Shown: in pieces, positions 29,301 through 46,029 of the stretch
Layout: every line of letters starts with the position of its first letter
Numbering within the stretch: position 1 is the stretch's first letter
Assembly: GCA_903873905.1 (NCBI GenBank)
Contig: CAIQQJ010000043.1
Span: 4,426-68,425 of the forward strand
DNA: 64,000 bases
DNA from: an uncultured Flavobacteriales bacterium
GTDB taxonomy: Bacteria; Bacteroidota; Bacteroidia; Palsa-965
Direction: 5' to 3'
The notes under the pieces: generated by a model
What the model was told of the DNA's origin: nothing
The model's input: only the letters and a program-made list of their open reading frames with translations
Databases searched by the model: none
Made by a program: the position numbers and the translations under genes

Positions 29301-29897
29301 TTATGCTGATTGCTTTTTCAATTCAAATTCCACACCGAGCTTAAAAGCCTTCACTGTTTTTTCCTTATGGTAAGCTGTAACCGTATTGATAATTGCTTCC
29401 TCAATTTTATTTGCTTCAAATGGAAAATCCTTCATTCGCGTTGCCCTACCCAATAAGAAAACATTGAAGAGAACGGCGTCAATTCCTTCTGGGAATTTTT
29501 CGATAAACACAACTTCCTTGCATTGTTCCCCCAAATATTTCGCAAAGGAATTGATATCCGGATATTCTGCCATTTGTGCATTAACAGAATAAGGTTGCAC
29601 ACGATAATTACCAAAAATCACACAACTGTTCTTGTGCAAATAAGAAAGACATCTTTGCGTTTCAAGTGGCTCCAAACCGATTAACAAATCAATTCCGGCT
29701 GTTCCATAAAATCCAGTTGTGTGTTCTCCCAATCCAATTCCGGAAGTCACAACACCACCACGTTGGGATAGTCCATGAATTTCACTCACGCTAACAGGAA
29801 TATTTGAAAGCATTGCAGCTTCTACAATAATATTGCTCAGGTAAACAATTCCTTGTCCACCAACTCCTGCAATCAATATTTTTTTACAAACCAACAT
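29301..29897 (-). CDS. iorB: indolepyruvate:ferredoxin oxidoreductase beta subunit
   Basis: 198 aa. 'ILIAGVGGQGIVYLSNII', a POR gamma-type domain, 2 nt downstream of the iorA-like gene. Confidence 0.8.
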   Translation of the reverse strand: MLVCKKILIAGVGGQGIVYLSNIIVEAAMLSNIPVSVSEIHGLSQRGGVVTSGIGLGEHTTGFYGTAGIDLLIGLEPLETQRCLSYLHKNSCVIFGNYRVQPYSVNAQMAEYPDINSFAKYLGEQCKEVVFIEKFPEGIDAVLFNVFLLGRATRMKDFPFEANKIEEAIINTVTAYHKEKTVKAFKLGVEFELKKQSA

Positions 29898-29899
29898 GC

Positions 29900-32800
29900 T
29901 TATATTATTTCTTCTGGTTCCAACTCTTCTTCTTCAATTACCTCAAAACGAATTGCATTATTCGGACAAACATCAATGCACAATCCACATAAATTGCATC
30001 GCGACATATCAATTTGAACTTTTCCATTCACTTTCACCATTGCAGGACAACCGAAATTGTCAATGCAATGATTGCACTTCTGACACGACTGAAAAAGATT
30101 ATATCGTTCAATTTCAACTTGAATGTCATCATCAACAATAGCTTTTCTCAAATGAAGCGTTGGTGCAGGATTTGTATTCAAACGCTCCAAGGCCATTTCA
30201 CCTTCATAAGCATATTTATAATTCTCCAATGATTTCCGAACAGCGACAACTGCTTTCTTTCCTGATGCAATGGCACCTATCACACTCATATTGTTTCCTG
30301 AACTGATGTCACCAGCAACAAATACATTTTCGTATCCAGTAAATGAATTTTCACTTTTCACTCTTTGATTTTCATCAATTTGAATTTGTGCAAATAAACT
30401 TGGATCAGTAGTTTGTCCAATAGCAGTGATAATAAAATCACATTTGATATTTTGCAGGAATGTTTTCTTTTCGTGTGAATGAAGAACTACATTCAATTCA
30501 CCGTCTTTTCCAACAGAACAAGTCTCAACAAAACTATCGTGAATGAATTCAATATCCTCTTCGGAGGCATGTTTCACCTCTTCGGCAAAGGCAGGCATTG
30601 TACTTTCTGTTTCAATACAGGAAACAATGATTTTATTCAATACATTCAACTTTTTCGCTGAACGAGCCGTATCAATTGCACTGTTACCACCACCAATAAC
30701 CAAAACCGTGGAACCTGGTTTGATGATTTCCTCCTTGAGATTAAAAGATTTCAGGAAAGAAAGTGCATCTGTTCTTTTTGCTGATGGAATTGTAGAATCA
30801 ATCAAATCAATTGTTTTCGATTTATTCATTCCGATTGAAAGAATGACTGAATCGAATTCTTTTGCTAATTTCTCCAATGAGATTTCTTTTCCAAGTGAGG
30901 TATTGAATTGGAATTTCACTCCCATTTCCTCCAATTGCATGGCTTCGTAATCATATCCCGTTTTATCCATTCGGAAATCCGGAATTGCAAATGTTACCAT
31001 TCCACCAGCCTTATTCTCTTTTTCAAAAATGGTCACCTCATATCCGTTTTGAACCAAATCGTAAGCAGCACTCAAACCTGCAGGACCAGCACCGACAACA
31101 GCAATTGTTTTATTTTTCTTCACAGCATTTTTCACCCTTTTCATAGGAATAGAAAAATCGCGGAAATTCTGATCGATTTCAGCAACCAAATGCTTCAATT
31201 TCTTGATTGGCACAACACTATTCTCATTTGAGAAAAGTTCACATGGTCGATGACAAATTGCGCCACAAGTTCTTGCAAACAACATTTTATCGCGAACAAT
31301 CTCCACTGCAGATTTGTAATCACCTTCTAAAATGGAATTGAAAAAACCATGATTGCAAATATTTGCCGGACAAAGCTGTTCATCACCAGGAATGGAAATT
31401 TCCGCAATGAGTTTGGCTTTTGCTCTTGATAAATTATTTTTTGGAGCGTAACAACGTGAACAGGCCAAAGAAACATCTTCATGGTTAGCGCAGGAATTAC
31501 AAAGATTCGGATCAACAACGATTTGCATTTTCTTGTCGATCTTGTCCTTAAAATCAGGAAGGAAAATGCAAGGTGCTTTTGCTATTACCACAGAAACGCC
31601 AGTGTACTCCATTGCACCGTTCAGTTTCTTGAAACTTTCACGAATATCAAACGGATTGATTACTTCTAACTTCTCAATGCCCAATCCTTTCAAAAGGGAA
31701 TAAATGTCTATTTCATGATATTTTGGAAGACGTGAAGCACCTGGATGAGCTTGATGTCCTGTCATTCCTGTTGTGCGGTTGTCAAATATTACAACCAGTA
31801 TATTTGCGCGTGTATAAACGGCGTTCACCAAAGCGGAAAGTCCAGAATGGAAAAAGGTTCCATCTCCAACCAAAGCGACAACTTTTTTACCTTTTTCGGA
31901 AGAATTAAAAGATTCATACAATCCTTGAGCCATGGAAATACTCATGCCCATGTGATTGATGGTATCCAGCATTTTTAAAGGAGGCAATGCGCCCAAACCA
32001 AAGCAACCGATATCACCACACAAAATCAATTCACTCTGTTCACGAGGAATCGCAAGTTTCAGCAAATAAAATGTTGCGCGGTGTGGACAACCTGCACATA
32101 ATGCCGGAGGACGAGGTGGAAGATTCTGAAGATACTTTTCAAAATTGTCAAGTGGAATATTTTCATTCTTGTTGAATGGAACTTCCAAATATTCTTCCAA
32201 CACTTTTTTCAATAAGTCAATGGAAAATTCACCTGTTGAAAGCAAACCTGAAAAACCTTTTCCCAAAATGGTTAAATTCAAATTATTCTTTTGGGCAATT
32301 ATCCTAATGCAATTCTCAAGTAATGGATCAAGCTCTTCAAGCACCAATACTTTCTCAAATCCTTTTTTCAAAAATGCCAAAACTTCACTCTCCGGAAATG
32401 GGTGAATCATCCCAAGGTCAAGCACACAAACTTTCTCAGTGAAATCATTTTGATGAAGCAGCTCCGTAATATAGGAAGTTGCAACACCACTACTGATGAT
32501 GCCAAGTTTTGTTTTGTTACTGTTTAAAACAACTTTGGTATTCTGATTCAATAAGGCAAGCACACTTTCAGTTTTCAATTTATCAAGCAGGCGTGTGTGA
32601 GCGGCAGCAGTGCGTGCAGGAATATTGATGTGTTCCGGCAAACGATCAAAGTTTGCAATGCGATTTTCGTTGTTGATATTTCCATACGTCACAATTCCAC
32701 GAGTATGAGAAACGCGCGTGGTAGTACGAACGATGACTGGTAATTTTATTTTTCCAGAAAGTACAAACGCTTCCTTGATCATTTCAAATGCATCGGCAGG

Positions 32801-33295
32801 AGTAGCAGGATTAAACATCGGCACAGATGCCAACGGTCCCCAATAGCGGGAATCCTGTTCATTCGAGCTGGAGTGACAACCTGGATCATCACAAACGACA
32901 ATTACCAAGGGTGCGCCAATCGTTTGGTATGTAACGGACATCAATGCATCACTGGCCACATTCATTCCAACATTTTTCATTACGCAAAGTGCACTTCTGT
33001 TTCCTATAGAAAATGCAATTGCTTTTTCAAGCGCAATTTTTTCGTTGATGCTGAATTCAAAATAGACAGGATCAACAGTGAGTTCAGGATATTTTTCCTG
33101 ATTGCTAGGGCTGTTTTGAAAATTATTAATGTGATTGAAAATTTCTGAAATTTCAGTTGAAGGAGTTCCCGGATAAGCAAATACTCCATTCACACCCGCT
33201 TCAAGAGCGGCACGCGCTATTCCCTCATTACCCATCACACATGTTTTATGTGGAGAAGCATGTGGTCTTAATATATTGATAGTGCGTTGAATCAT
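29900..33295 (-). CDS. iorA: indolepyruvate:ferredoxin oxidoreductase alpha subunit with an inserted GltD/NfnB-like NAD(P)H-FAD module
   Basis: 1131 aa. N-terminal IorA core ('GNEGIARAALEAG', TPP box 'GDGTFFHSGLSALVNAV'). Then 'CPANICNHGFF...ARTCGAICHRPCE', 'IAVVGAGPAGLSAAYDL', 'VLVIGGGNSAIDTARSA' and 'VFVAGD' (glutamate synthase small-chain type). Then the 2x[4Fe-4S] 'CQKCNHCIDNFGCP ... CNLCGLCIDVCP'. Confidence 0.85.
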   Translation of the reverse strand: MIQRTINILRPHASPHKTCVMGNEGIARAALEAGVNGVFAYPGTPSTEISEIFNHINNFQNSPSNQEKYPELTVDPVYFEFSINEKIALEKAIAFSIGNRSALCVMKNVGMNVASDALMSVTYQTIGAPLVIVVCDDPGCHSSSNEQDSRYWGPLASVPMFNPATPADAFEMIKEAFVLSGKIKLPVIVRTTTRVSHTRGIVTYGNINNENRIANFDRLPEHINIPARTAAAHTRLLDKLKTESVLALLNQNTKVVLNSNKTKLGIISSGVATSYITELLHQNDFTEKVCVLDLGMIHPFPESEVLAFLKKGFEKVLVLEELDPLLENCIRIIAQKNNLNLTILGKGFSGLLSTGEFSIDLLKKVLEEYLEVPFNKNENIPLDNFEKYLQNLPPRPPALCAGCPHRATFYLLKLAIPREQSELILCGDIGCFGLGALPPLKMLDTINHMGMSISMAQGLYESFNSSEKGKKVVALVGDGTFFHSGLSALVNAVYTRANILVVIFDNRTTGMTGHQAHPGASRLPKYHEIDIYSLLKGLGIEKLEVINPFDIRESFKKLNGAMEYTGVSVVIAKAPCIFLPDFKDKIDKKMQIVVDPNLCNSCANHEDVSLACSRCYAPKNNLSRAKAKLIAEISIPGDEQLCPANICNHGFFNSILEGDYKSAVEIVRDKMLFARTCGAICHRPCELFSNENSVVPIKKLKHLVAEIDQNFRDFSIPMKRVKNAVKKNKTIAVVGAGPAGLSAAYDLVQNGYEVTIFEKENKAGGMVTFAIPDFRMDKTGYDYEAMQLEEMGVKFQFNTSLGKEISLEKLAKEFDSVILSIGMNKSKTIDLIDSTIPSAKRTDALSFLKSFNLKEEIIKPGSTVLVIGGGNSAIDTARSAKKLNVLNKIIVSCIETESTMPAFAEEVKHASEEDIEFIHDSFVETCSVGKDGELNVVLHSHEKKTFLQNIKCDFIITAIGQTTDPSLFAQIQIDENQRVKSENSFTGYENVFVAGDISSGNNMSVIGAIASGKKAVVAVRKSLENYKYAYEGEMALERLNTNPAPTLHLRKAIVDDDIQVEIERYNLFQSCQKCNHCIDNFGCPAMVKVNGKVQIDMSRCNLCGLCIDVCPNNAIRFEVIEEEELEPEEII

Positions 33296-36143: not shown

Positions 36144-36166
36144 GACTTGTTTTTATAACTATTGAC

Positions 36167-36550
36167 TTAAGCAACCACTTTTATTGTATTAAAATACAAC
36201 ACCACATCAGCAACCTTGCTTCCTGTTGGAAATGCTTCCGACGCGCCCAACTTCTTTAATTCCTCAATGTCGTTTGCCGGAATATTCCCTCCGACAAACC
36301 AAGGAGTAGTCAGTTTTTTCCTATCCATCACTTCTTTCATTCTTCCAGAAAGTAAAAGATGAGTTCCCGATAAAATGGAAAGCCCAATGATGTCCACCTT
36401 GTTTTTTATAGCGATATCGACAATATCCTCAATGGATTTTCTCAGACCAGTATAAACAACTTCAAATCCTGCATCAATTAATCCGTGAGCCAAAACTTTA
36501 ACTCCAACATCGTGGCCATCAAGACCTGGTTTTGCCAATAAAACTTTCAT
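36167..36550 (-). CDS. B12-binding (small) subunit of the acyl-CoA mutase
   Basis: 127 aa. 'GLDGHDVGVKV' contains the DxHxxG cobalamin-binding motif. Confidence 0.85.
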   Translation of the reverse strand: MKVLLAKPGLDGHDVGVKVLAHGLIDAGFEVVYTGLRKSIEDIVDIAIKNKVDIIGLSILSGTHLLLSGRMKEVMDRKKLTTPWFVGGNIPANDIEELKKLGASEAFPTGSKVADVVLYFNTIKVVA

Positions 36551-36562: not shown

Positions 36563-37453
36563 TTATTTTTCAACTTTTTCCAACAAGGCTTCCCATTCTG
36601 TATCCACTTCTTTCTGATAGGAATTCATCAATTTTGTTGCATCTGTTTTAAACAAATGTGAAAAACGCCCTTGTTGTTTAAACAATTCACTTACTGCAAT
36701 TTTCTTTTTAGGAAAATGGGTGATTTCATAATCGCCATCTTCCGCTTCAAACAGCGGAAAATAATTTGTTTCCACTGCAAGTCGTGAAATTTCAATTGAC
36801 ATTTCAGGTGCATATTTATGACCTGGAGGGCAAGGGCTATCAATCATCAGAAAACGAAAACCAGATAATGATTTTGCCTTTTCTAATTTCTTTTTCAAAT
36901 CATCAAGAAATGCCAGAGAGGCGGTAGCAAAATAAGGAATCTTGTGAGCAGCAATTATTCCCATAAGATCTTTTGCATTCGAAGTTTTGCCAGAAGGATT
37001 TGTTGTTGTAATTGCACCCATTGGAGTTGCAGTGCTACTTTGAACACCCGTATTCATATAAGCACCATTATTGTTGCAGATATAAAGAATGTTTTCATTC
37101 CTTGCAGCGGCACCTGAAAGTGATTGCAAGCCAATGTCAAAAGTTCCTCCATCGCCGGCTAATACAACCACTGCAGATTTCTTTTTTCCTTGTCGGTCCA
37201 AGGAGTGCCGAACACCTGTTGCTGTTGCTGCTGCTGCTGCAAATAATGTATGCACAACAGTTCCTTTCAACATGTTCATTGGATAAGGCCCAGCGATAAT
37301 TGAAAAGCAGCATGCTGGGACAACATAAACCGTTTTTGTTCCCATCACATTTGAAATATGTCTTACGAGCAGCGACCATCCGCATCCGCGACAGCTCAAT
37401 GCACCACAAAAAACATTTTCTTCCTTTATCAAAAAATTACTTTCAGTTTTCAT
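36563..37453 (-). CDS. 2-oxoacid:ferredoxin oxidoreductase beta (TPP) subunit
   Basis: 296 aa. 'CRGCG' N-terminal Cys motif and 'LAGDGGTFDIGLQS' TPP box. Confidence 0.85.
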   Translation of the reverse strand: MKTESNFLIKEENVFCGALSCRGCGWSLLVRHISNVMGTKTVYVVPACCFSIIAGPYPMNMLKGTVVHTLFAAAAATATGVRHSLDRQGKKKSAVVVLAGDGGTFDIGLQSLSGAAARNENILYICNNNGAYMNTGVQSSTATPMGAITTTNPSGKTSNAKDLMGIIAAHKIPYFATASLAFLDDLKKKLEKAKSLSGFRFLMIDSPCPPGHKYAPEMSIEISRLAVETNYFPLFEAEDGDYEITHFPKKKIAVSELFKQQGRFSHLFKTDATKLMNSYQKEVDTEWEALLEKVEK

Positions 37454-37511: not shown

Positions 37512-38705
37512 CTATTTATCAATCCAAATTATTTCTTCTGTTTCAGGGGAATTGAAATCTATATTTATTATTTTTTCTATTGTTGTTGGTGGAACATCTC
37601 TTCCGCCAAGACCTGCATACACTCCAAATATTTTTCTGCTTCCGCCATACATCGCCCTTTTTATTTCCTGCATCAGTGCTCCTTCATTGTCTCCCAAATA
37701 ATTTCTGTCTATTGCAATGAGAATACAATCCTTATTGACTTTTTCAAGAACTTTCAAGATGGACTTTTTTGGAAAAGGTTTCATCAAACGAATCTTGAGC
37801 AAACCAACATCAGGATTTGATTGTAATACACCTCGAGCTGTTGTTGTAATGGAAGAAAGAGTAATCAGAATTTTTTTCGTTCCCGCATGAATGTTTACGG
37901 CTTCAATCGCTCCGTAACTTCTTCCAAAATGTGTTTCAAATTCCGCTCCAACTATATTGAATGCATCTTCCACTTTATTCATATCCTGCCAGAAAAGACG
38001 ATTGAACTTATCATACAATTCAGGTGCAACCAATCCACCAAACGCTTTAGGATGATCAATATCAATATCCGTATCGCTAACCATTCTTGGTGGTAAATAT
38101 TCATCCACCAATTTCTGCTCTGGGATATACACATTTTCATTGGTGTGACTCACGTAAAATGCGTCCAGCACAACTAAGGTCGGGAACAACAATTTTTCAG
38201 AAATTTTATATGCTTGAATAAGCGTATCCAAAACATCTTGTGAATTTTCACAGTAGATCTGAATCCAACCTGTATCTCGTTGTGCCAGTGAATCACTTTG
38301 GTCACACCAAATATTCCATGGATAAGATGGTCGACCTACGTTGCAAGCAACAACAGGCAAACGCAAATGTGCAATTGCATGGAGCACTTCGTGCGCATAT
38401 AATAAACCTTGTCCACTAGTTGCTGTAAAAACTCTTTCACCAACCAATGCAGCACCTTTGATTGCAGCAAAGACCGAATGTTCACTTTCCATATTGACGG
38501 AAACGGCATCAAATTCCCCTTTGGAAATCATAGAAGCAATTTCCTCAATGATGGTCGTTTGAGGAGTGATGGGATAAGCGGAAATAAATGTTGCCTTGCA
38601 AATTTTTGCTGCTTCGGCGGCGGCGGTATTTCCCTTCAACACTTTTTTAGTGTGCCGTTTCACTTCTTTTACTTTAGTAATTTTTATTGCTAGTTCGCTT
38701 TTCAT
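37512..38705 (-). CDS. 2-oxoacid:ferredoxin oxidoreductase alpha subunit
   Basis: 397 aa. 'GNTAAAEAAKICKATFISAYPITPQT', a PorA/VorA-type N-terminus. Confidence 0.85.
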   Translation of the reverse strand: MKSELAIKITKVKEVKRHTKKVLKGNTAAAEAAKICKATFISAYPITPQTTIIEEIASMISKGEFDAVSVNMESEHSVFAAIKGAALVGERVFTATSGQGLLYAHEVLHAIAHLRLPVVACNVGRPSYPWNIWCDQSDSLAQRDTGWIQIYCENSQDVLDTLIQAYKISEKLLFPTLVVLDAFYVSHTNENVYIPEQKLVDEYLPPRMVSDTDIDIDHPKAFGGLVAPELYDKFNRLFWQDMNKVEDAFNIVGAEFETHFGRSYGAIEAVNIHAGTKKILITLSSITTTARGVLQSNPDVGLLKIRLMKPFPKKSILKVLEKVNKDCILIAIDRNYLGDNEGALMQEIKRAMYGGSRKIFGVYAGLGGRDVPPTTIEKIINIDFNSPETEEIIWIDK

Positions 38706-38717: not shown

Positions 38718-40976
38718 TTATTCTGTTACAACCAGGTTTTCTTCTTGATAGCGCACTGCAGAGCAAGGACATTCACGAACGCAAATTCCGCATCCTTTGC
38801 AAAAGTCATAATCTATGCGCAAACGATTTTCCTCATCAATGAAAATTGCAGCATCGGGACAATAATTAAAACAATTGCCACAGTTATAACAATCACCGCA
38901 ATGCAAACAGCGCGTCGCTTCTTCCACAATGGTTTTGGCTGGCAAACCCTGAACTACTTCGGTGAAATCATTCAGCAATTTTTCCACTTCCTTAAATGGA
39001 TTTGAATTTCCAGGAGTAGGAAGATAATAGGTGAAATTTATTTGATCTGCTGATACAACGTCATTGGTTCGTTCTGTTTTTACATATTCCGTTTTTCTCA
39101 AAAAAGCATTTACTTCATTCGCAACATCATTACCAGAACCAATTGCTTCCACAATTGTACCTCCCCAAGCCATATCACCACAACAGAAAACAGGAACATT
39201 GTTCTTTCCAGAAACAAATTCAATTTCTCCCTGCTTAACCGCTACTTTTTTATCGGTGAAAACAAAATCATCAAATGTTTGACCAGTAGCCTTGATAATT
39301 TTATTTGCAGTAAATTTTCTTTCTGATCCTTTTACAGGAATAGGTTTTCTTCTTCCAGAATCGTCAGCTTCACCAAGTTTCATTCTTACAGAGGTGATTC
39401 TGAATTCACCATTCTTGTTTTTTTCAATGTTCACTGGTGCAGTAAGAAATTCAATCTGCACACCTTCCTTCATTGCTTCTTCCACTTCGTGCGCGATAGC
39501 AGGCATTTCTTGCCGCGTTCTGCGGTAATAAATTATTGGATGACCTCCCAATCTCAAAACAGTTCGTGCAACATCAATAGCTGTATTACCGCCACCGATA
39601 ACTGCCACATCATCTCCTTTTCGTATTGCCTTTTTATTTTCTCCAGATTTAACTTCTCTCAAAAATTTTATTCCCTCGATGATTTCCTCTTCATTGGCCA
39701 AATTCATATTGGTTCCGATATGCGAACCCACTGCCACAACAATCGCGGAAAAATCATTTTTCAATTCATCGACTGAAACTTTTTTATTCAAAACAATTTT
39801 TACGTCTTGATCAACAATTTTCTGAATTTCTTGGTCAAGAACTTTTCCTGGAAGTCGAAACTCCGGAATGCCTGTTCTCATCATACCACCAGCAACAGGC
39901 ATGGATTCAAAAACGGTTACCTCATATCCTTGTTGCCGCAAACGCAAACCCGCTGTAAGTCCTGAGGGACCTGAACCGATCACTGCAATTTTTTCTTTGT
40001 GAAGAATAGGGACGCGTTTGAATTGATGAGATGCATTTTTGTCACCAAGAAAACGTTCAATCGCACCAATATTCACTTCTTCATCAAAACCAATTCTATT
40101 GCAATTTTGTTGACAGAAATGCGGACAGACGCGCCCACATATGGAAGGAAACGGGTTGTGTTTATAGATAACCTGATAAGCATCGGAAAATTTATTTTCA
40201 CCGGTGAGTTTTACAAATGTTCTCACATCTGTGCCAGCAGGACAGCTTTGCGTACACGGGGCTTGTCTATTTTGATAACCCGGAACTAAAACACGCCAAG
40301 TTCCCGTTTTATTCAATGACATTGGTTTGTCCCAATACGGCACACTCGGAAGATCGTTATATGATGGTGCAACCGCTTTGGCAATTGTGGCGGATTTAGT
40401 AAACGCAGAATCGATAAGTCCAACAACACTATTATATGCAATTTCTGCAGCGGCTTCATTTGCATCAGGCTTATTGGGAACTTCCTTTTTGATAATTGCT
40501 TTTGCATCATCAATTCCAGCTTCCAAAATTTTCAGAATTGCACCGATCATCGCGGCATTCACAATAGGAAGCGATTTACTTCCCAATTTATTATCTACCG
40601 ATATTCTTGTAGCAGGAACTGTGAAAATATTTTTGGCTCTACCCTTATAAAATGAAGGAGGATTTTCGGTATTGATCAAGATAATTCCATTCTCCGCTAA
40701 ACCATCAAATACATTGGTGAGTTCGATCAATCCCTCATCAAATACAACAACCAGATTCGGACTATAAATATTGCTGCGATTTAGAATCACCTCAGGAGAA
40801 AACCGAAAGAAGGCTTGAATGGGCGCGCCCGTACGTTCCACTCCGAAAAATGGGAATGCCTGCACTTCATAATTTTTAGTGTAGCTAAAAACTTTTGCAA
40901 GAATATCAAAAGCAGTAACCATTCCCTGTCCGCCACGTGCGTGACCTCTGACTTCAAAAACACCTGTTATATTCAT
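38718..40976 (-). CDS. 2-oxoacid oxidoreductase gamma subunit fused to a GltD/NfnB-like NAD(P)H-FAD module and a delta-type 2x[4Fe-4S] domain
   Basis: 752 aa. 'GHARGGQGMVTAFDILAK' (gamma). 'CPAGTDVRTFV...ICGRVCPHFCQQNC', 'IAVIGSGPSGLTAGLRL', 'VAVIGGGNTAIDVARTV' and 'VFCCGD' (GltD-like). 'CLHCGDCYNCGNCFNYCP...CKGCGICVRECP' (delta). Confidence 0.85.
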   Translation of the reverse strand: MNITGVFEVRGHARGGQGMVTAFDILAKVFSYTKNYEVQAFPFFGVERTGAPIQAFFRFSPEVILNRSNIYSPNLVVVFDEGLIELTNVFDGLAENGIILINTENPPSFYKGRAKNIFTVPATRISVDNKLGSKSLPIVNAAMIGAILKILEAGIDDAKAIIKKEVPNKPDANEAAAEIAYNSVVGLIDSAFTKSATIAKAVAPSYNDLPSVPYWDKPMSLNKTGTWRVLVPGYQNRQAPCTQSCPAGTDVRTFVKLTGENKFSDAYQVIYKHNPFPSICGRVCPHFCQQNCNRIGFDEEVNIGAIERFLGDKNASHQFKRVPILHKEKIAVIGSGPSGLTAGLRLRQQGYEVTVFESMPVAGGMMRTGIPEFRLPGKVLDQEIQKIVDQDVKIVLNKKVSVDELKNDFSAIVVAVGSHIGTNMNLANEEEIIEGIKFLREVKSGENKKAIRKGDDVAVIGGGNTAIDVARTVLRLGGHPIIYYRRTRQEMPAIAHEVEEAMKEGVQIEFLTAPVNIEKNKNGEFRITSVRMKLGEADDSGRRKPIPVKGSERKFTANKIIKATGQTFDDFVFTDKKVAVKQGEIEFVSGKNNVPVFCCGDMAWGGTIVEAIGSGNDVANEVNAFLRKTEYVKTERTNDVVSADQINFTYYLPTPGNSNPFKEVEKLLNDFTEVVQGLPAKTIVEEATRCLHCGDCYNCGNCFNYCPDAAIFIDEENRLRIDYDFCKGCGICVRECPCSAVRYQEENLVVTE

Positions 40977-41100: not shown

Positions 41101-42060
41101 TTAGCGTTTGCCTATGTGATGTGTGTATCCTACGAGTAAAATAGGTTCAATAAAAGTGAAATGCTGACTTGCTTTTCCTCCAACCGTTGTTGTTCTGATA
41201 TCCGGCAAATTAATATAACCAGCTTTCAACTTTCCGAGAATAAAGAAGTGCTTAAACAAATCAATCTGCAATCCTGCGCTTGCCGATAAACTATATCCTG
41301 CCAAGTGAAAGGATTTTTTTCCTGTTTCCATATTATGGCGTGCAGTATAATCAAGTACATCAGCATCAGTATCAGGAATGACCATACCACTGCCAACTGT
41401 TGTTTGAAATGACAATGCATGTTTAGAATTTTTGGAAATCCACAATTGCTCAAGATGACCGAATTCAAAACTGAAATCATTCAAGCCATCACAATGTTCA
41501 AACTCTGGAACAAAACCTTGAGGTAAAGAATCGGTAATACTTGAAGGCAAATAGTTCCCATTTGCTGCGCCGTCGCCCACTAAAACCGTTGTGTTATTAT
41601 AAGTACCTGCATTTAATCCTGAATCAATAGTTCCCGACAAACGAGCAATTTGTCGATCGAGCGCATATTTCATATGATCATGCCCAAACGAAACCCAATT
41701 TTTATCGTTAAGGAAATAACCTACTCTTTCATTGTATTGCGGAACAGTAAATGTGTTGGGTTTAATGTATGTGAGGAAATCAAAATGAAAAACTCCTGTT
41801 CCCGTTACATCAAAAATTGTAAAATCATATCCGTCTCCCCAAAAACGAATATCACTTTTACTGAAAGCTGCTCTGTTGTATCCCCAATAGAGGAAAAAAT
41901 TACCTTTTCGTTGATAAAGTATTCTCGTCTCTGAATTACCATTTCCCTGATTATTCATATCAGGCACTTTTGCAATTGTCGTGTCTTTGTTCACCTGCGC
42001 CGATCCAACAAGTGATGTAAATGAAATCAACAGTAAGGCAGTTAGTTTTTGAATTTTCAT
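41101..42060 (-). CDS. secreted / outer-membrane protein of unknown function embedded in the catabolic cluster
   Basis: 319 aa. Signal peptide MKIQKLTALLLISFTSLVGSAQ and beta-rich, aromatic-alternating sequence. I recognise no family. Confidence 0.5.
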   Translation of the reverse strand: MKIQKLTALLLISFTSLVGSAQVNKDTTIAKVPDMNNQGNGNSETRILYQRKGNFFLYWGYNRAAFSKSDIRFWGDGYDFTIFDVTGTGVFHFDFLTYIKPNTFTVPQYNERVGYFLNDKNWVSFGHDHMKYALDRQIARLSGTIDSGLNAGTYNNTTVLVGDGAANGNYLPSSITDSLPQGFVPEFEHCDGLNDFSFEFGHLEQLWISKNSKHALSFQTTVGSGMVIPDTDADVLDYTARHNMETGKKSFHLAGYSLSASAGLQIDLFKHFFILGKLKAGYINLPDIRTTTVGGKASQHFTFIEPILLVGYTHHIGKR

Positions 42061-42082: not shown

Positions 42083-43267
42083 TTATTTTTCTAAAATTAT
42101 TACTGAAGCAATTGCTCCAGGTCCACCGATGTTATGTGTCAATCCTCTTTTTGCATTCTTAACCTGACGTTCTCCCGCGCTTCCACGTAGATGATTGGCC
42201 ACTTCAACAACCATTCGAATTCCTGTTGCACCCACTGGATGTCCACATGACAATAATCCGCCACTCACATTCACAGGAATTTTTCCACCAAGTTGTGTTT
42301 CTTTACCACGAATCAAATCTTTTGCTTCTCCAACTTTGCACAAACCCAAATCTTCATAGGTAAGTAACTCAACAATAGAAAAACAATCATGCACTTCGAT
42401 CAAATCAATTTCATCAATTGGATTTGTGATTCCCGCTTGTGCATAGGCTTTTTTTGCTGCATTACGTGTCGCTTCAAAAGAAAGAAAATCATGATTCGGA
42501 TCGAAGAAGGGCAAATCCCAACCTGTGGAAATTGAAAGTCCGAGTCCTTTTACAAAAACAGGATTGTGTTTGGTCTTATCCACATCTTCAGCGCGAACCA
42601 TAATCACACATGCAGCACCATCAGTTGTTGGACAAGAATCCAAAACAGTAAGTGGATCAGCGACCATTTGTGATTTCATGACTTCTTCAAGAGAACAGGC
42701 CTTTTGATAAAAAGCTTTTTCATTCAATGAACCATGCAAATGATTTTTTACGGAAACGTTTGAAATATCTTCACGTGTCACACCATATTCTTTCATCATT
42801 CGATTTGCGTAAACAGCAAAAGTTCCTGCAGCAGTAAAACCTTTTTGCAAAAACGGATGGCCATATTCCACCATCATTTTTACAATGGAATCTTGTGGTT
42901 GACGATCGCGAAGTTTTTCAACACCAAGTGCCATAGCCACATCACATTCTCCAGCGCGCAACGCATTTATTGCATTCCGCATCGCATCTGCTCCCGAAGC
43001 ACAATAATTTGAAACACGAGTAACGGGAATATTATAAAGAGAAAGCGGTTCGCACAAATCCATTCCACTTCTTCCTTTAAAAACACCAATTTCCGGAAAT
43101 GCAGTAGAGAGCCAAGCTGCTCCAATATCATCCATGCTAATTTTTGCATCGCTCACTGCTTGCATCGCCGCATCACGTACCAAATCATCATAACTCTGAT
43201 GAAAGAGTTCACCAAATTTTGTGACTCCAATTCCAATGATCGCTATGTCTGTTAATTTAGAATTCAC
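42083..43267 (-). CDS. thiolase (SCP-x / archaeal-type, DUF35-associated class)
   Basis: 394 aa, GTG start. 'IAIIGIGVTKFGE', nucleophile box 'NYCASGADAM', 'GHPVGATGIRM' and 'HNIGGPG'. Confidence 0.85.
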   Translation of the reverse strand: MNSKLTDIAIIGIGVTKFGELFHQSYDDLVRDAAMQAVSDAKISMDDIGAAWLSTAFPEIGVFKGRSGMDLCEPLSLYNIPVTRVSNYCASGADAMRNAINALRAGECDVAMALGVEKLRDRQPQDSIVKMMVEYGHPFLQKGFTAAGTFAVYANRMMKEYGVTREDISNVSVKNHLHGSLNEKAFYQKACSLEEVMKSQMVADPLTVLDSCPTTDGAACVIMVRAEDVDKTKHNPVFVKGLGLSISTGWDLPFFDPNHDFLSFEATRNAAKKAYAQAGITNPIDEIDLIEVHDCFSIVELLTYEDLGLCKVGEAKDLIRGKETQLGGKIPVNVSGGLLSCGHPVGATGIRMVVEVANHLRGSAGERQVKNAKRGLTHNIGGPGAIASVIILEK

Positions 43268-43347
43268 AATTTAGAATTAAGAATTATTTTTTTTAGTCGA
43301 ATTAATAATCGAAGTCAATAACCGAAGAAGTTCATCTATTTGATTCT

Positions 43348-44712
43348 TCATTTTGTTGTCGCCTTCCAGAAATAATTAGGTTTCTCATCGTTCTCAATCA
43401 TTTTCCGTAAAACCAATTTCACTTTTGAACCGATCTCTAAAGTGTTTTTCTCAGGATACATTGTATCCGTTTGCTGAACAGTCATTCTTACTCCTCCGTC
43501 CAAATCAATAATAGCCATGGTGATCGGAGGAAAAGAACTTGGAAAATAATGTTCTTTTGTAAATGCATAAACTGATCCTGCATTTGCCAATTGAACAGTT
43601 GAAAATTTATCGCCCTTGCATTTTTTACAACGTCCGGTTTTCAAATAATAAATTGTTCCGCATGTTGTACATTTCAAGCCTTTCCTGTACAGCAATGTTT
43701 CTTTTTCCCTTTCCTGCATCATTTCGGAAGAAAACATTTCTTTGGTATCATATTTTGCAGAATGGAAATTCCCCGCTTTTCGTAACAGTAAATAATCCTG
43801 ATAGGAATTAACCAAATCAAAATTGCCGAGTTGTTCTTGCAAGTTTTTTTCTTTACCTACTGAATTGTTTTTTATTTCAAGAATGTTTGTCCCATTTGCA
43901 TAATCAACGAGTAGAATATGTTTCTTCTCGCTTTCAATTTCATTGATTAGAAGAAGTAATGCATGAGTCGCGCCAGTATTTCCAATTTTGGAAGAAATTA
44001 AATCTCTTGCAAATTGTTTTTCTTCAAAACCCGCTTTAGCAAATATTCCCCCTCCCATCCGAGCGTACACTGAATTAAGAATAATAGCATCGAAGGATTT
44101 CGGATCTGAAACAAGTTTCTTCAGTGAAGAAGTCAAATTGGTTTTGAATCCAGCATCGCGACTGAATCGCGGATCGTATTGAATGGATGCTCCTTTATAA
44201 GAAAACTCTTCCGCAAAAGAAGAACTGAATGATTTTGCAAAAGAAATTTCCGCGATTCCTTTTTCATTGCTAATTAATAGCGAACAAGCAGCATGACCAT
44301 AAGGAGTAGATAGTTCGTTTCCTATTCCTGGGAAATCAACATCTGATGCAATAACCAAAATGTTTTTGTACTTGCCCGAATCAATTAGATCATTTGCCAA
44401 AAGCAAAGCATCTGTTCCTCCCCTTGATGAGTTGATAAAATCAAGCGCCAAAATTCCTTGAGGGAGATTCAATAAATCAGCTAAAAAAGAAGCATGGTAA
44501 CGATTTTCAAAAACCGAACTTGAACTTGCAAAAAATATTCCGTCGATATTTTCTTTCGATATTTTTTCTGATGCTGCAAAAGCCAAAGTGATTAAATCCT
44601 CATCGGAAAAACAAACCGCTTTCATCACACCCTTTTTCCCCTTGGGATGCAAGGTGCAATCCTCCACTCTGAAATGTGGCAACGCAATTCCGTATGACTT
44701 AATTTGACTCAT
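43348..44712 (-). CDS. HMG-CoA synthase/KAS-III-like domain fused to a DUF35 Zn-ribbon + OB-fold domain
   Basis: 454 aa. Thiolase-superfamily fold in the first ~330 aa. C-terminal 'CTTCGTIYYLKTGRCKKCKG' zinc ribbon plus OB-fold ('VYAFTKEHY...MAIIDLDGGVRMTVQ'). Confidence 0.75.
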   Translation of the reverse strand: MSQIKSYGIALPHFRVEDCTLHPKGKKGVMKAVCFSDEDLITLAFAASEKISKENIDGIFFASSSSVFENRYHASFLADLLNLPQGILALDFINSSRGGTDALLLANDLIDSGKYKNILVIASDVDFPGIGNELSTPYGHAACSLLISNEKGIAEISFAKSFSSSFAEEFSYKGASIQYDPRFSRDAGFKTNLTSSLKKLVSDPKSFDAIILNSVYARMGGGIFAKAGFEEKQFARDLISSKIGNTGATHALLLLINEIESEKKHILLVDYANGTNILEIKNNSVGKEKNLQEQLGNFDLVNSYQDYLLLRKAGNFHSAKYDTKEMFSSEMMQEREKETLLYRKGLKCTTCGTIYYLKTGRCKKCKGDKFSTVQLANAGSVYAFTKEHYFPSSFPPITMAIIDLDGGVRMTVQQTDTMYPEKNTLEIGSKVKLVLRKMIENDEKPNYFWKATTK

Positions 44713-44715: not shown

Positions 44716-46029
44716 TCAGGAAATTATTTTTTTAGTTTCATTTGCAATAACAGGTTCGCGTAAGGATTGAAACATTTTTTCTGCATCAATCTTTTTTGAA
44801 ATTTTACTTTCACTGAAAACTTTCATCAATGATTCCATTGGGAAAAGTCCTGTTGCAGTCAACATATAGAAAAGGCAATACATGGAAGAGTTTTTTGCAC
44901 CACCTCTTTCGCGAAATGGAAATGAAATGACTTCCGCTTTCGTTTCAGGAGCTGTGAGGGAACTATCAAGGAATAATTTCCCACCTTTCATGCTTGTAAG
45001 TGTTTTCCTTGCGTAATCCAAACCATCTGTTGACGTCACACAAATCACATCTGGATTAGGCGATCCAGTGTAAAGAATTTCATCCGAAGAAAGAATAATT
45101 TCTGAAGCGGAAAACCCAACTCCTACCGTAACGGGATAACTTCCTTTTTTTGTTCCATTCAAACCAGAAACAATTCCTGCTTCCAACAACATTTCAGCCG
45201 CACCTTGAATTCCTTCTCCTGCCGACCCACACAACATCAAGCGAACTTCCTTTTCCAACTTTGAAGGAAAAGCAGTTTCAATAATGTCATCATCATTGAA
45301 AAGAACATTACTTGATTGATTGATTTTAGATTTATAATTAACAGCTTCCGTATCAGCATATTTTTTTACATCGAGACCCGCACCTTCCATCACATTGGAA
45401 AGTTTCATTCCAGGATTCGATTTCACACCGTAACTCGGACAAATTTCCATCACTTCCACCAATGAAAAACCTTTCTTTGAAAACGCTTCAGCCAATTGTT
45501 CAGAAAAATCACCAATACCTTCCAAGCGAGAAACATAAGTCACACCATCAACAGCAGCAATCAATTTACAAATATCATATCCCGCCTTATCAGCACCATT
45601 TGGCAATGTCGGAGTCTTGAATCCCATTGGAGTGAATTCGCTGCATTGTCCGCCGGTCATTCCATACAACATGTTGTTATGTATTACAACCGTCATGTTA
45701 AAGCCATTGTGTGCCGCATTGAACAAATGTTGCATCCCAATTGTTGTACCGCCGTCACCGATAAAAACAATCACTTTCTTATCTGGATTTTCCAATGCAG
45801 CGGAAATTCCAGAAGCCAAGGCAACCGAACGTCCATGAAGGCCGTGAACTGTATGTGTTTTAAAAGATTTGTCAATGATTCCATGGCAACCAATATCAGT
45901 TACTAAAATCACATCCATTGGATTCATTCCCAATGACTGCAAAGCCTTTTCAGTATTTCCAGCAATATGATGATGGCCACATCCTTTGCAAAATGGTAAA
46001 GCCTCATCGGTTAAAAATTTTTCCATCAC
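44716..46029 (-). CDS. 2-oxoacid:acceptor oxidoreductase beta (TPP) subunit fused to a gamma domain
   Basis: 437 aa. 'FCKGCGHHHI', 'FIGDGGTTIGMQH', then 'LMLCGSAGEGIQGAAEMLLEAG' (gamma-type). No delta/ferredoxin domain. Confidence 0.8.
   Translation of the reverse strand: MMEKFLTDEALPFCKGCGHHHIAGNTEKALQSLGMNPMDVILVTDIGCHGIIDKSFKTHTVHGLHGRSVALASGISAALENPDKKVIVFIGDGGTTIGMQHLFNAAHNGFNMTVVIHNNMLYGMTGGQCSEFTPMGFKTPTLPNGADKAGYDICKLIAAVDGVTYVSRLEGIGDFSEQLAEAFSKKGFSLVEVMEICPSYGVKSNPGMKLSNVMEGAGLDVKKYADTEAVNYKSKINQSSNVLFNDDDIIETAFPSKLEKEVRLMLCGSAGEGIQGAAEMLLEAGIVSGLNGTKKGSYPVTVGVGFSASEIILSSDEILYTGSPNPDVICVTSTDGLDYARKTLTSMKGGKLFLDSSLTAPETKAEVISFPFRERGGAKNSSMYCLFYMLTATGLFPMESLMKVFSESKISKKIDAEKMFQSLREPVIANETKKIIS

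What the first reader, a model, noticed from the sequence alone, without database searches (positions are those of the whole stretch)
38718..40976. Second OFOR in the cluster carries the same GltD-like module, inserted between its gamma and delta domains
Seen: the 752-aa ORF has a PorG-type N-terminus (GHARGGQGMVTAFDILAK). It is followed by 'CPAGTDVRTFV...ICGRVCPHFCQQNC', 'IAVIGSGPSGLTAGLRL...VFESMPVAGGMMRTGIPEFRLP', 'VAVIGGGNTAIDVARTV' and 'VFCCGD'. It ends with a delta-type 'CLHCGDCYNCGNCFNYCP...CKGCGICVRECP'. Alpha (37512-38705) and beta (36563-37453) genes follow, so the order matches the usual porG-porD-porA-porB layout with one extra module. In both fusions (this one and 29900-33295) the GltD-like module sits directly N-terminal to the 2x[4Fe-4S] domain, and the two modules align well by eye. 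Inference: a recurring GltD-ferredoxin cassette has been recruited twice, which argues for function rather than a chance fusion. It fits the absence of any ferredoxin gene in the cluster. Because NfnB-type flavins are bifurcation sites in Nfn, a confurcating or bifurcating role is conceivable but unsupported here (no NfnA-like partner is seen).
Basis: partly seen in the sequence, partly recalled or inferred. Interest (0 to 1): 0.7.

Follow-up and report, generated by a model that had tools for sequence, protein, structure and literature searches.

The report
Oxoacid oxidoreductase with built-in NADPH module
This Bacteroidota gene fuses two small subunits of a 2-oxoacid oxidoreductase to a DsrL/NfnB-like flavoprotein threaded through the enzyme's own ferredoxin domain, so electrons probably go straight to NADP+ rather than to free ferredoxin; the design is widespread, has a partial biochemical precedent, and is untested in this family.

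Summary
The 752-aa ORF, its motifs and the downstream alpha and beta genes are real. The anatomy needs correcting. The flavoprotein is not between gamma and delta but nested inside delta. The order is gamma, PorD N-terminal arm, NfnB-like core, linker, the relocated NfnB N-terminal helix with its CxxC, then the PorD dicluster. Two graft tests support this, each adding about 16-28 bits across independent profiles. All cofactor ligands are invariant in 120/120 full-length homologues.

Residues 220-746 form a full-length member of the DsrL/PRK12771 architecture. Unfused forms sit in the delta slot of gamma|X|alpha|beta operons in 8 of 11 sampled contexts; one other is a true DsrL in a dsr locus.

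The IorA fusion's module is only 25-27% identical. It has the canonical cysteine order, Lys instead of the Glu ligand, "CIE" instead of the NADPH motif "YRR", and an IorA-type ferredoxin domain. So these were two independent recruitments, not one cassette.

Bifurcation is disfavoured: no NfnA gene, Arg333 replaced by Ile, and the closest solved relatives do not bifurcate.

Most likely function: a ferredoxin-independent, CoA-acylating 2-oxoacid:NADP+ oxidoreductase. Substrate unresolved. A new variant of a known kind.

The parts
38718..40976 (-). 752-aa fusion protein: gamma + (delta interleaved with a DsrL/NfnB-like NADPH flavoprotein)
   Evidence: 120/120 listed homologues share the architecture
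40422..40958 (-). OFOR gamma (PorC/PorG) domain, residues 7-185
   Evidence: PF01558 E 2.6e-30; TIGR02175 142 bits vs cutoff 81.1
40257..40319 (-). PorD N-terminal arm ('NKTGTWRVLVPGYQNRQAP'), residues ~220-240
   Evidence: Grafting it onto the C-terminal dicluster raises TIGR02179 from 63.1 to 83.1 bits (profile 27-77 to 7-77) and raises five further delta-subunit models. W227 is invariant in 120/120 and present in 82/90.
40017..40256 (-). Fe-S subdomain of the NfnB-like module, residues 241-320. C241 and C292 belong to the distal cluster; C245, C284, C288 and E307 to the proximal cluster.
   Evidence: Fer4_20 profile 28-111; alignment to T. maritima and P. furiosus NfnB; ligand assignment from PMC7596348; invariant
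39087..39992 (-). FAD domain with embedded NADP(H) domain, residues 329-630: GSGPSG 334-339, GGGNTA 461-466, Y484-R485-R486, I494 at the position of Pf NfnB Arg333, GD 600-601
   Evidence: Pyr_redox_2; alignment to NfnB, StnC and GltD structures; conservation
38997..39086 (-). Linker joining the old C-terminus of the flavoprotein core to its relocated N-terminal element, residues 631-660
   Evidence: No family match; corresponds to the 'linker' described for DsrL
38892..38996 (-). Relocated NfnB/GltD N-terminal helix plus C690-x2-C693 (distal-cluster ligands), residues 661-695
   Evidence: NfnB residues 13-42 align here, after the core. Putting the segment back in front of C241 raises Fer4_20 from 79 to 105 bits (profile 28-111 to 3-111) and seven canonical GltD-family models by 16-28 bits. 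C690 and C693 are invariant in 120/120 and 90/90.
38739..38891 (-). PorD-type 2x[4Fe-4S] domain, residues 696-746: C696/699/702/706 and C726/729/732/736
   Evidence: TIGR02179 61-63 bits vs cutoff 60.05; invariant cysteines
37512..38705 (-). OFOR alpha subunit, 397 aa
   Evidence: POR_N + PFOR_II. Best matches: PorA_Arch 340 bits and M. acetivorans POR alpha 9bt4_B 239 bits. Follows the fusion in all 23 fusion loci whose contig continues.
36563..37453 (-). OFOR beta subunit, 296 aa (TPP and [4Fe-4S])
   Evidence: TPP_enzyme_C; GDG..NN at residues 100-134; C21, C24, C49, C208 invariant in 21/21 relatives
29900..33295 (-). Comparator: IorA fused to a distantly related, non-permuted NfnB-like module (probably NAD-type) placed ahead of its native ferredoxin domain
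29301..29897 (-). IorB partner of the comparator fusion

Best explanation
The 752-aa protein, with the alpha (37512-38705) and beta (36563-37453) genes, encodes a POR/VOR-clade 2-oxoacid oxidoreductase whose acceptor is built in.

Shown from sequence: the chain runs gamma domain, PorD N-terminal arm, NfnB/DsrL-like Fe-S subdomain and FAD/NADP(H) domains, a linker, the relocated NfnB N-terminal helix with its CxxC, then the PorD 2x[4Fe-4S] domain. The flavoprotein is therefore a circular permutant of the NfnB/GltD fold nested inside delta. All ligands for four [4Fe-4S] clusters, FAD and NADP(H) are conserved.

Inferred mechanism: the 2-oxoacid is decarboxylated on TPP in alpha/beta. Single electrons pass from the beta [4Fe-4S] to the two delta clusters. 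They then reach the module's distal cluster (C690, C693, C241, C292), which begins two residues from the delta dicluster and takes the place where free ferredoxin docks on NfnB. From there they go to the proximal cluster (C245, C284, C288, E307) and to FAD, which collects two electrons and reduces NADP+. The net reaction is 2-oxoacid + CoA + NADP+ -> acyl-CoA + CO2 + NADPH. It needs no ferredoxin, does not bifurcate, and is strongly exergonic, so in practice it runs one way.

The substrate is not resolved. Candidates are pyruvate, 2-oxobutyrate and branched-chain 2-oxoacids. The gene string points to amino-acid catabolism. The neighbouring IorA fusion is an independent, probably NAD+-linked, solution to the same problem.
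For: Anatomy: domain hits; NfnB aligns in two swapped pieces. The delta graft adds 17-24 bits in four PorD/VorD delta models, 8-13 bits in the PadF and oxalate-OR delta models, and none with the native upstream sequence. The Fer4_20/GltD graft adds 26 bits in Pfam and 16-28 bits in seven NCBIfam models. The junction motifs are shared by all 21 split-delta members displayed; the three IorA-type proteins shown alongside differ.

Selection: C241, C245, C284, C288, C292, E307, C690, C693, the eight delta cysteines, GxGxxG, GxGxxA and YRR are invariant in 120/120 fusions and in at least 83/90 representatives at <=50% identity. C280, which corresponds to a non-ligand Thr in Pf NfnB, varies.

Intact catalytic partners.

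Operon logic: unfused relatives sit as gamma|X|alpha|beta in L026, L027, L030, L032, L033, L034, L036 and L037.

NADP(H): the YRR motif binds the 2'-phosphate in NfnB and tracks NADP(H) preference experimentally in DsrL (PMC7596348). The equivalents of Pf Arg325 and Arg382 are kept.

Not bifurcating: the Arg333 equivalent is Ile (120/120) and is never Arg in 90 representatives. No NfnA gene. These are the criteria of PMC12221290. The best solved matches, StnC and NfnA of NfnABC, are plain NADPH ports.

No ferredoxin ORF in the window.

Precedent: A. evansii 2-oxoglutarate:NADP+ oxidoreductase has a GltD/NfnB-type subunit (PMC10134865).
Against: There is no biochemistry for any member of this family; NADP+ reduction is inferred from motifs and relatives. 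Inter-cluster distances could not be measured, because the tools return no coordinates and model no complex. The route from the delta clusters to the distal cluster is therefore a topological inference. Free ferredoxin or flavodoxin encoded outside the 64-kb window could still interact. Alpha and beta score below every NCBIfam equivalog cutoff, so substrate is unknown. The nearest standalone relative (Ca. Desulfatibia, 58-59% identical) lies among cytochrome b/c genes, not OFOR genes, which shows the unit can serve other partners. NF009410 scores 502 bits against a 516-bit cutoff.
Confidence: 0.65

Rival explanations
1. Dual-acceptor or ferredoxin-coupled enzyme. The complex still exchanges electrons with a free ferredoxin or flavodoxin encoded elsewhere. 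The embedded module then acts as an attached Fd:NADP+ oxidoreductase (Fnor-like) that balances the Fd and NADPH pools, rather than as an obligatory exit.
For: Standalone NfnB-like proteins of the Cac_0764 type are monofunctional Fd:NADP+ oxidoreductases. DsrL uses its C-terminal ferredoxin domain to dock onto partner proteins. The same unit occurs with non-OFOR partners.
Against: In NfnB, ferredoxin docks at the distal cluster. Here that cluster is covalently followed, two residues later, by the delta dicluster. The unit occupies the delta slot in 8 of 11 sampled unfused contexts. No ferredoxin ORF in 64 kb.
Confidence: 0.15
2. Flavin-based electron bifurcation or confurcation at the module's FAD, as in NfnAB, coupling 2-oxoacid oxidation to two acceptors or donors.
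For: The module is homologous to NfnB (237 bits to 4ylf_B) and keeps the Glu ligand of the proximal cluster.
Against: There is no NfnA-like partner in the window. The Arg333 equivalent is Ile and is never Arg across the family. The extended N-terminus is absent or relocated. The closest solved relatives have lost bifurcation. No second nucleotide site or third electron path is evident.
Confidence: 0.06
3. Reductive direction: an NADPH-driven 2-oxoacid synthase that carboxylates acyl-CoAs for amino-acid synthesis.
For: OFORs are reversible in principle. From general knowledge, not tested here: some Bacteroidota reductively carboxylate branched-chain and aromatic acids.
Against: From established redox potentials, NADPH (about -320 mV) cannot drive a couple near -500 mV without coupling, and no coupling device is visible. 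The neighbours are catabolic: acyl-CoA dehydrogenases, thiolase, 3-hydroxyacyl-CoA dehydrogenase, MCM, an aminotransferase and an amino-acid dehydrogenase.
Confidence: 0.06
4. One reading: one GltD+ferredoxin cassette was copied into both OFORs of this cluster.
For: Both modules have NF009410 as their best flavoprotein family (502 and 270 bits). Both precede a dicluster domain. Both fusions occur together on related contigs (L001).
Against: Identity is 25-29%. The cysteine topologies differ, as do Glu vs Lys and YRR vs CIE. The ferredoxin domains are PorD-type vs IorA-type. Other IorA fusions (P0155, P0175) carry a module 41% identical to module 1, so IorA fusions arose more than once.
Confidence: 0.08

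Closest known systems
DsrL (NAD(P)H:acceptor oxidoreductase of dissimilatory sulfur metabolism; Loffler et al. 2020, PMC7596348)
   Same: Same unit: Fer4_20-type Fe-S subdomain, FAD with an embedded NAD(P) domain, a linker, then a C-terminal 2x[4Fe-4S] domain ending '...ECPC'. A dsr-locus member (P0188) is 40% identical to module 1 over its whole length and also has 'RCxxCGxC...' ahead of the ferredoxin motif. YRR marks NADP(H) preference in DsrL-2.
   Different: DsrL is a separate protein working with DsrAB/DsrC. It has only a degenerate N-terminal arm ('..LRP..PxC'). Its authors explicitly excluded homologues linked to pyruvate/ketoisovalerate:ferredoxin oxidoreductase genes, which is the group this gene belongs to. 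Here the unit is fused to gamma and followed by alpha and beta.
Four-subunit pyruvate/2-ketoisovalerate:ferredoxin oxidoreductases (PorGDAB/VorGDAB)
   Same: Gamma, delta, alpha and beta parts in the canonical gene order; TPP motif and beta-cluster cysteines intact; delta dicluster of PorD type.
   Different: Gamma and delta are fused and delta is split by a ~455-residue flavoprotein. The predicted acceptor is NADP+ instead of free ferredoxin. Alpha and beta fall below all equivalog cutoffs.
2-Oxoglutarate:NADP+ oxidoreductase (KGOR) of Azoarcus evansii (Ebenau-Jehle et al. 2003)
   Same: A biochemically characterised OFOR that reduces NADP+ and includes a GltD/NfnB-homologous subunit (as cited in PMC10134865). 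It is the functional precedent for the proposed reaction.
   Different: From general knowledge, that enzyme has a KorAB-type 2-oxoglutarate catalytic core; here the core is POR/VOR-type. I could not read the original paper, so its subunit architecture was not compared. My recollection of three subunits of 63/62/37 kDa with FAD is unverified.
StnC (Sporomusa Stn) and NfnA of Bfu-type NfnABC (PDB 8oh5_C, 9n5u_A, 9bov_A)
   Same: Best solved matches (242-287 bits). They align colinearly through core then 'EA.RCLeCG', the same permuted order. There the GltD-like domain is nested in an Fe-S scaffold and acts as a non-bifurcating NADPH port.
   Different: The scaffold is NuoG/formate-dehydrogenase-like, not PorD. 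The proximal-cluster ligand is Lys/Cys in StnC and Glu here. Those enzymes are part of bifurcating HydBC-type complexes.
NfnB / Cac_0764-type Fnor / GltD
   Same: Homologous Fe-S subdomain plus FAD/NADPH domains; all seven Cys and the Glu ligand, and YRR, are conserved.
   Different: Those have the canonical N-terminal helix-CxxC order. They lack a C-terminal dicluster and an OFOR linkage. NfnB needs NfnA and Arg333, and GltD needs GltB.
Phenylglyoxylate:NAD+ oxidoreductase PadEFGHI; pyruvate:NADP+ oxidoreductase (PNO) of Euglena and Cryptosporidium
   Same: OFORs that hand electrons to a pyridine nucleotide through an added flavoprotein. This is an analogy from general knowledge.
   Different: Pad has five separate subunits, and matches here are far below cutoffs: PadE 85/300, PadG 217/700, PadI 217/700, PadF 45/150. 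PNO uses a cytochrome-P450-reductase-type FMN/FAD module. Neither uses an NfnB-like module nested in delta.

Membership tests
POR/VOR-type four-subunit OFOR | Gamma domain (PF01558 / TIGR02175) | tested here: met
   142 bits vs cutoff 81.1, residues 7-184
POR/VOR-type four-subunit OFOR | Delta subunit: N-terminal arm plus 2x[4Fe-4S] (TIGR02179) | tested here: met
   The C-terminal part alone scores 61-63 bits vs cutoff 60.05. Arm and dicluster rejoined score 83.1 bits over profile 7-77 of 78. In the native chain the two halves are about 455 residues apart.
POR/VOR-type four-subunit OFOR | Alpha and beta subunits with the TPP motif and beta [4Fe-4S] cysteines, in gene order gamma-delta-alpha-beta | tested here: met
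POR/VOR-type four-subunit OFOR | Equivalog-level identity to PorA/PorB or VorA/VorB (substrate assignment) | tested here: not met
   PorA_Arch 340/550, VorA 289/646, NF008818 344/405, PorB 296/405
POR/VOR-type four-subunit OFOR | Free ferredoxin as electron acceptor | not testable with these tools
   Predicted not to apply; no ferredoxin ORF in the window
DsrL (criteria of Loffler et al. 2020) | All domains in order: N-terminal Fe-S, FAD/NAD(P), linker, C-terminal 2x[4Fe-4S] | tested here: met
DsrL (criteria of Loffler et al. 2020) | Gene not immediately linked to pyruvate/ketoisovalerate:Fd oxidoreductase genes | tested here: not met
   The gene is fused to gamma and followed by alpha and beta; the criterion is quoted
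DsrL (criteria of Loffler et al. 2020) | Organism carries dsrAB | tested here: inconclusive
   No NIR_SIR or dsr gene was found among the window ORFs scanned. The rest of the genome is unknown.
NF009410 / PRK12771 'NAD(P)-binding protein' | Full-length match above the curated cutoff | tested here: inconclusive
   502 bits vs cutoff 516; coverage 31-564 of 566
NfnB (bifurcating subunit of NfnAB) | nfnA immediately upstream | tested here: not met
   No NfnA-like ORF in the window
NfnB (bifurcating subunit of NfnAB) | Arg333 (Pf numbering) beside the FAD | tested here: not met
   Ile494 in 120/120; I/F/H/L/V in the representatives
NfnB (bifurcating subunit of NfnAB) | Extended N-terminus preceding the first CxxC | tested here: not met
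   The helix and CxxC lie after the core
GltD (glutamate synthase small subunit) | Score above family cutoffs, with a GltB partner | tested here: not met
   TIGR01318 210/483 and TIGR01317 156/448; no GltB among the window ORFs scanned
NADH-dependent phenylglyoxylate dehydrogenase PadEFGHI | Equivalog matches to the Pad subunits | tested here: not met
   All are far below cutoffs. PadH could not be assessed because only the best 25 families are listed.
NADP+-reducing OFOR (A. evansii KGOR type) | 2-oxoacid- and CoA-dependent NADP+ reduction; bound FAD | not testable with these tools
   Inferred from YRR, the FAD motifs and the Fe-S chain

The most novel reading that the evidence does not exclude
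The FCB-group bacteria, many of them aerobes, together with some Chloroflexota and Proteobacteria, carry a large uncharacterised class of ferredoxin-free 2-oxoacid:NAD(P)+ oxidoreductases. In these, a circularly permuted NfnB fold is nested in the enzyme's own ferredoxin domain. The same insertion-ready NAD(P)H port is what became DsrL and the StnC/NfnA module. DsrL would then descend from an OFOR delta subunit: it nests among delta-slot proteins in the tree and keeps a vestigial arm. The two 'missing' distal-cluster cysteines that the DsrL literature replaces with Ser/Thr/Arg would in fact be supplied by the RCxxC pair after the linker.
Probability: 0.3. Interest if true: 0.7.

Novelty: new variant of a known kind. 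Interest (0 to 1): 0.55.

Why it matters
If the enzyme reduces NADP+ directly, a whole set of amino-acid and 2-oxoacid oxidations in Bacteroidota, Ignavibacteria, Balneolales, Calditrichia and some Chloroflexota yields NADPH rather than reduced ferredoxin. That changes how redox budgets are read from genomes, where these genes are now annotated simply as 'ferredoxin oxidoreductase' or 'FAD-dependent oxidoreductase'. It could also help explain how oxygen-exposed lineages use OFOR chemistry without a low-potential ferredoxin pool.

Structurally, it is a clean natural case of circular permutation combined with domain insertion to hard-wire an electron chain. It also suggests a corrected cluster-ligand assignment for DsrL-type proteins. 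A compact three-gene, ferredoxin-independent, NADPH-forming oxoacid decarboxylase would be a useful part for metabolic engineering.

Tried and rejected
- **Archaeal origin.** Suggested by PorA_Arch and the thiolase/HMGCS/DUF35 genes. Rejected: named homologues are Bacteroidota/FCB and the window carries a T9SS PorP/SprF gene.
- **Phenylglyoxylate (Pad) enzyme for tyrosine or phenylalanine breakdown.** Rejected: all Pad models are far below cutoff.
- **Isobutyryl-CoA or 2-hydroxyisobutyryl-CoA mutase downstream, which would have pointed to a VOR.** Rejected. Despite HcmA being the best PDB hit, the specificity residues are Tyr/Ala/Arg as in methylmalonyl-CoA mutase.
- **My first ligand mapping.** I initially put the relocated CxxC on the proximal cluster, by analogy with DPD recalled from memory. 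I corrected this to the distal cluster using the NfnB assignment quoted in PMC7596348.
- **Papers not held.** Ebenau-Jehle 2003, Lopez-Barragan 2004 and Carmona 2009. Several literature searches gave nothing relevant.
- **Lost output.** One search returned nothing; the tree was recomputed. It is neighbour-joining without bootstraps, so only coarse placements are used.
- **L023 gap between beta and IorB.** It holds an unrelated opposite-strand ORF.
- **Structure prediction not run.** The tools return no coordinates and model no complex or cofactors, so the decisive inter-cluster distances could not be obtained.


Full report

Yes at the level of sequence. ORF 38718-40976 (-) encodes 752 aa and every quoted motif is present at the expected place. 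Pfam and NCBIfam give four kinds of domain:
- an OFOR gamma domain at residues 7-185 (TIGR02175 142 bits, cutoff 81);
- a Fer4_20 Fe-S subdomain at 237-317;
- a Pyr_redox_2 FAD/NAD(P) domain at 329-612;
- a PorD-type dicluster at 694-746.

Alpha (POR_N + PFOR_II) and beta (TPP_enzyme_C) follow 12 and 58 nt downstream. Beta keeps GDG...NN, and four cysteines are invariant in 21/21 relatives. The window is from a Bacteroidota genome: named homologues point there and it has a T9SS PorP/SprF gene.

**2. The anatomy is different from, and more interesting than, 'a module between gamma and delta'.**

Three results show that delta and the flavoprotein are interleaved.

(i) T. maritima and P. furiosus NfnB align to the protein in two pieces in swapped order. 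Their N-terminal helix plus first CxxC (residues about 12-46) aligns after the flavoprotein core (protein residues 660-694). Residues from 46-49 onward align to 238-628. StnC, 9bov_A and NfnA of NfnABC align colinearly through core then 'EA.RCLeCG'.

(ii) Delta graft test. I compared three constructs against six delta-subunit profiles:

| Model | Dicluster alone | With native upstream 40 aa | With residues 202-240 ('..NKTGTWRVLVPGYQNRQAP') joined on |
|---|---|---|---|
| TIGR02179 | 63.1 bits (profile 27-77) | 60.7 | 83.1 (profile 7-77 of 78) |
| PorD_Arch | 57.6 | 58.0 | 81.3 |
| PRK09624 | 52.7 | 50.6 | 77.0 |
| PRK09623 | 55.2 | 57.5 | 72.3 |
| PadF | 36.7 | 35.0 | 45.1 |
| Oxalate-OR delta | 39.4 | 37.0 | 52.0 |

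(iii) Reciprocal graft test. Placing residues 657-695 back in front of C241 gives these changes:

| Model | Native | Re-ordered |
|---|---|---|
| Pfam Fer4_20 | 79.0 bits (profile 28-111) | 105.3 (profile 3-111 of 113) |
| gltA | 60.5 | 85.0 |
| PRK12778 | 52.4 | 80.7 |
| gltD_gamma_fam | 46.4 | 70.6 |
| PRK13984 | 47.3 | 70.2 |
| PRK12775 | 51.4 | 67.5 |
| AegA | 37.1 | 63.2 |
| GOGAT_sm_gam | 34.0 | 55.6 |

The chain is therefore: gamma, PorD arm, NfnB-like part 2 (C241...core), linker, NfnB-like part 1 (helix + C690xxC693), PorD dicluster. In other words, a circularly permuted NfnB fold is nested inside delta.

Using the NfnB ligand assignment quoted in PMC7596348:
- the distal cluster is C690, C693, C241 and C292;
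- the proximal cluster is C245, C284, C288 and E307.

The delta dicluster starts two residues after C693, at the site where free ferredoxin meets NfnB.

**3. It is a conserved family, not an accident.**

All 120 listed homologues are about 740-790 aa with the same domains, at 56-100% identity. They come from Bacteroidia, Flavobacteriales, Chitinophagales, Saprospirales, Cytophagia, Balneolales, Ignavibacteria, Calditrichaceae and one cultured species, Natronogracilivirga saccharolytica. Fusion-alpha-beta is kept in all 21 fusion loci whose contig continues far enough to show it. In L001 and L002 the mutase and CoA-transferase genes follow as well, and in L001 the start of the IorA fusion too.

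Every ligand listed above, the eight delta cysteines, both Rossmann motifs and Y484-R485-R486 are invariant in 120/120. They are kept in at least 83/90 representatives that share at most 50% identity with each other. C280, which matches a non-ligand Thr in Pf NfnB, varies. The junction motifs 'TGxWR..P..PCxxxCP' and 'F.EV...EA.RC[FL]xCGxCxxCxxCxxxCP' are family-wide.

**4. What the unit is.**

Residues 222-745 match NF009410/PRK12771 end to end (31-564 of 566; 502 bits, cutoff 516). An exhaustive search with residues 222-752 found 20,537 relatives at E<=1e-3. The best 150 are mostly standalone proteins of 530-610 aa at 35-46% identity. At least 12 are independent gamma fusions, including one from Dehalococcoidales, and two are IorA fusions.

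I sampled the genomic context of 11 unfused forms:
- Eight sit as gamma|X|alpha(|beta): L026, L027, L030, L032, L033, L034, L036, L037.
- One (P0188, 40% identical) lies between dsrAB and dsrN/C/M/K-like genes, so it is DsrL.
- Two lie next to cytochrome b/c or Rieske genes.

The DsrL paper describes the same domain order. It shows experimentally that YRR goes with NADP(H) preference. It also states that homologues linked to pyruvate/ketoisovalerate:ferredoxin oxidoreductase genes were found and deliberately excluded. So this group has been seen but not studied.

In a neighbour-joining tree without support values, gamma fusions are scattered among standalone forms, which suggests repeated fusion or fission. 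The DsrL-like sequences nest among delta-slot proteins.

**5. Comparison with the IorA fusion (29900-33295).**

That fusion is equally widespread: 120/120 top hits are fusions longer than native IorA, 117 of them about 1,100-1,200 aa, mostly from Bacteroidota. But it is not the same cassette.

| Feature | Module 1 (this gene) | Module 2 (IorA fusion) |
|---|---|---|
| Identity to module 1 | - | 25% over 530 aa; 27.1% over the core |
| Identity to the 28 fetched loci carrying a module-1-type protein | - | 24.7-29.5% |
| Identity to Tm NfnB / StnC | 36.4% / 37.0% | 32.5% / 32.3% |
| Position of distal-cluster CxxC | After the core (permuted) | C599, C602, C612 upstream of the core (canonical) |
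| Residue at the proximal-cluster Glu position | Glu307 | Lys701, invariant, as in StnC |
| NAD(P) motif | YRR | 'C-I-E' (114/117) |
| 'SGRR' loop | Present | Missing |
| C-terminal dicluster type | PorD (61-63 bits) | IorA (TIGR03336 539-595, 45 bits; PorD 28) |

The motif differences suggest module 2 uses NAD. IorA fusions of a second kind (P0155, P0175) carry a module 41% identical to module 1. The two fusions in this cluster are thus independent solutions of the same design problem.

**6. Function.**

The best-supported reading is a ferredoxin-independent, CoA-acylating 2-oxoacid:NADP+ oxidoreductase. The inferred route is TPP, beta cluster, delta clusters, distal cluster, proximal cluster, FAD, NADP+.

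Bifurcation is unlikely by the published criteria:
- no nfnA in the window;
- the Arg333 equivalent is Ile and is never Arg in the family;
- the extended N-terminus is absent.

The closest solved relatives use the domain as a simple NADPH port. A. evansii 2-oxoglutarate:NADP+ oxidoreductase, whose GltD/NfnB-type subunit is noted in PMC10134865, is a functional precedent. I could not read the original paper.

No ferredoxin ORF with the classical motif exists in the window.

The substrate stays open. Alpha and beta fall in the POR/VOR clade but below every equivalog cutoff. The same-strand gene string runs from about 55153 to 23673 and points to amino-acid catabolism. It holds:
- a third OFOR of KorAB type;
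- an acyl-CoA dehydrogenase, a thiolase and a 3-hydroxyacyl-CoA dehydrogenase;
- an MCM-type B12 mutase and a family-III CoA-transferase;
- the IorAB fusion and a Mo-hydroxylase;
- RidA and a HisC-type aminotransferase.

Just outside it, on the + strand, lies a methionine-gamma-lyase-family PLP enzyme (55316-56707), and about 5 kb beyond the other end a Glu/Leu/Phe/Val dehydrogenase (16999-18219).

**7. Novelty and verdict.**

The kind is known: an OFOR coupled to NAD(P) through an NfnB/GltD-like flavoprotein, and the DsrL architecture. To my knowledge and within the literature I could search, three things are not described:
- the nesting of a permuted module inside delta;
- the gamma fusion and its breadth in the FCB group;
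- the implication that the RCxxC pair completes the distal cluster in DsrL-type proteins.

I rate it a new variant of a known kind, with interest 0.55. The anatomy is well supported. The NADP+-linked activity is a well-motivated inference that a simple enzyme assay would settle.

Noticed in passing
window 29900-33295 (-): The IorA fusion's flavoprotein has 'C-I-E' (893-895; 114/117 homologues) where NADPH-type relatives have 'YRR'. It also has an invariant Lys701 at the Glu-ligand position and three invariant cysteines (C599, C602, C612) upstream of the core. It probably uses NAD+, and its topology is not permuted.
   Followed up: partly
L038 4501-6216 (P0188); compare window 38718-40313: A true DsrL, in a dsrAB...dsrC/M/K locus, is 40% identical to module 1. 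It shares the post-linker 'RCxxCGxC' motif and keeps a degenerate '..LRP..PxC' N-terminus. DsrL may descend from an OFOR delta subunit. Its distal-cluster ligands may be the relocated CxxC rather than the Ser/Thr/Arg proposed in the literature.
   Followed up: partly
L022 1593-10450; L035 5049-5471: The nearest standalone relative of module 1 (Ca. Desulfatibia, 58-59% identical, no gamma) lies among cytochrome b, multihaem and c-type cytochrome, EB_dh-like and Fer4_11 genes. Another copy is followed by a Rieske protein. The unit may serve as an NAD(P) port on a cytochrome bc-like complex.
   Followed up: partly
window 44716-47186 (-): There is a third OFOR in the same gene string: a KorA-like alpha (46053-47186) and a beta+gamma fusion (44716-46029). 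It has no delta/ferredoxin domain and no flavoprotein.
   Followed up: no
window 48354-49208 (-): A 284-aa multihaem cytochrome c (c3/c7-type motifs) is embedded in an otherwise cytoplasmic acyl-CoA and oxoacid catabolic gene string.
   Followed up: no
window 34506-36550 (-): The split B12 mutase (545-aa large and 127-aa B12-binding subunits) has HcmA as its best PDB hit. It nevertheless carries the methylmalonyl-CoA mutase specificity residues (RQ-Y-AGF, V-A-FD, IG-R-G). It sits immediately downstream of beta, an arrangement conserved in L001 and L002.
   Followed up: partly
window 24671-29292 (-): A Mo-hydroxylase set (2Fe-2S subunit, 789-aa large subunit, FAD subunit) scores equally for 4-hydroxybenzoyl-CoA reductase and xanthine dehydrogenase but below both cutoffs. 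A cysK-like gene (25549-26421) interrupts it between the large and FAD subunits.
   Followed up: no
window 42083-44712 (-): A thiolase lies next to a fusion of an HMG-CoA-synthase-like domain with a DUF35/BbsA-like domain. From general knowledge, this pairing is better known from archaea and from benzylsuccinate beta-oxidation.
   Followed up: no
window 49784-53981 (-): A hydantoinase A/B-type pair (oxoprolinase or acetone/acetophenone-carboxylase family) and RidA lie in the same strand run, with a 3-hydroxyacyl-CoA dehydrogenase at 53984-55153.
   Followed up: no
window 41101-42060 (-): A 319-aa ORF directly upstream of the fusion gene has no Pfam or NCBIfam match. It is conserved (46% identity) close upstream of the fusion gene in L002.
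   Followed up: no
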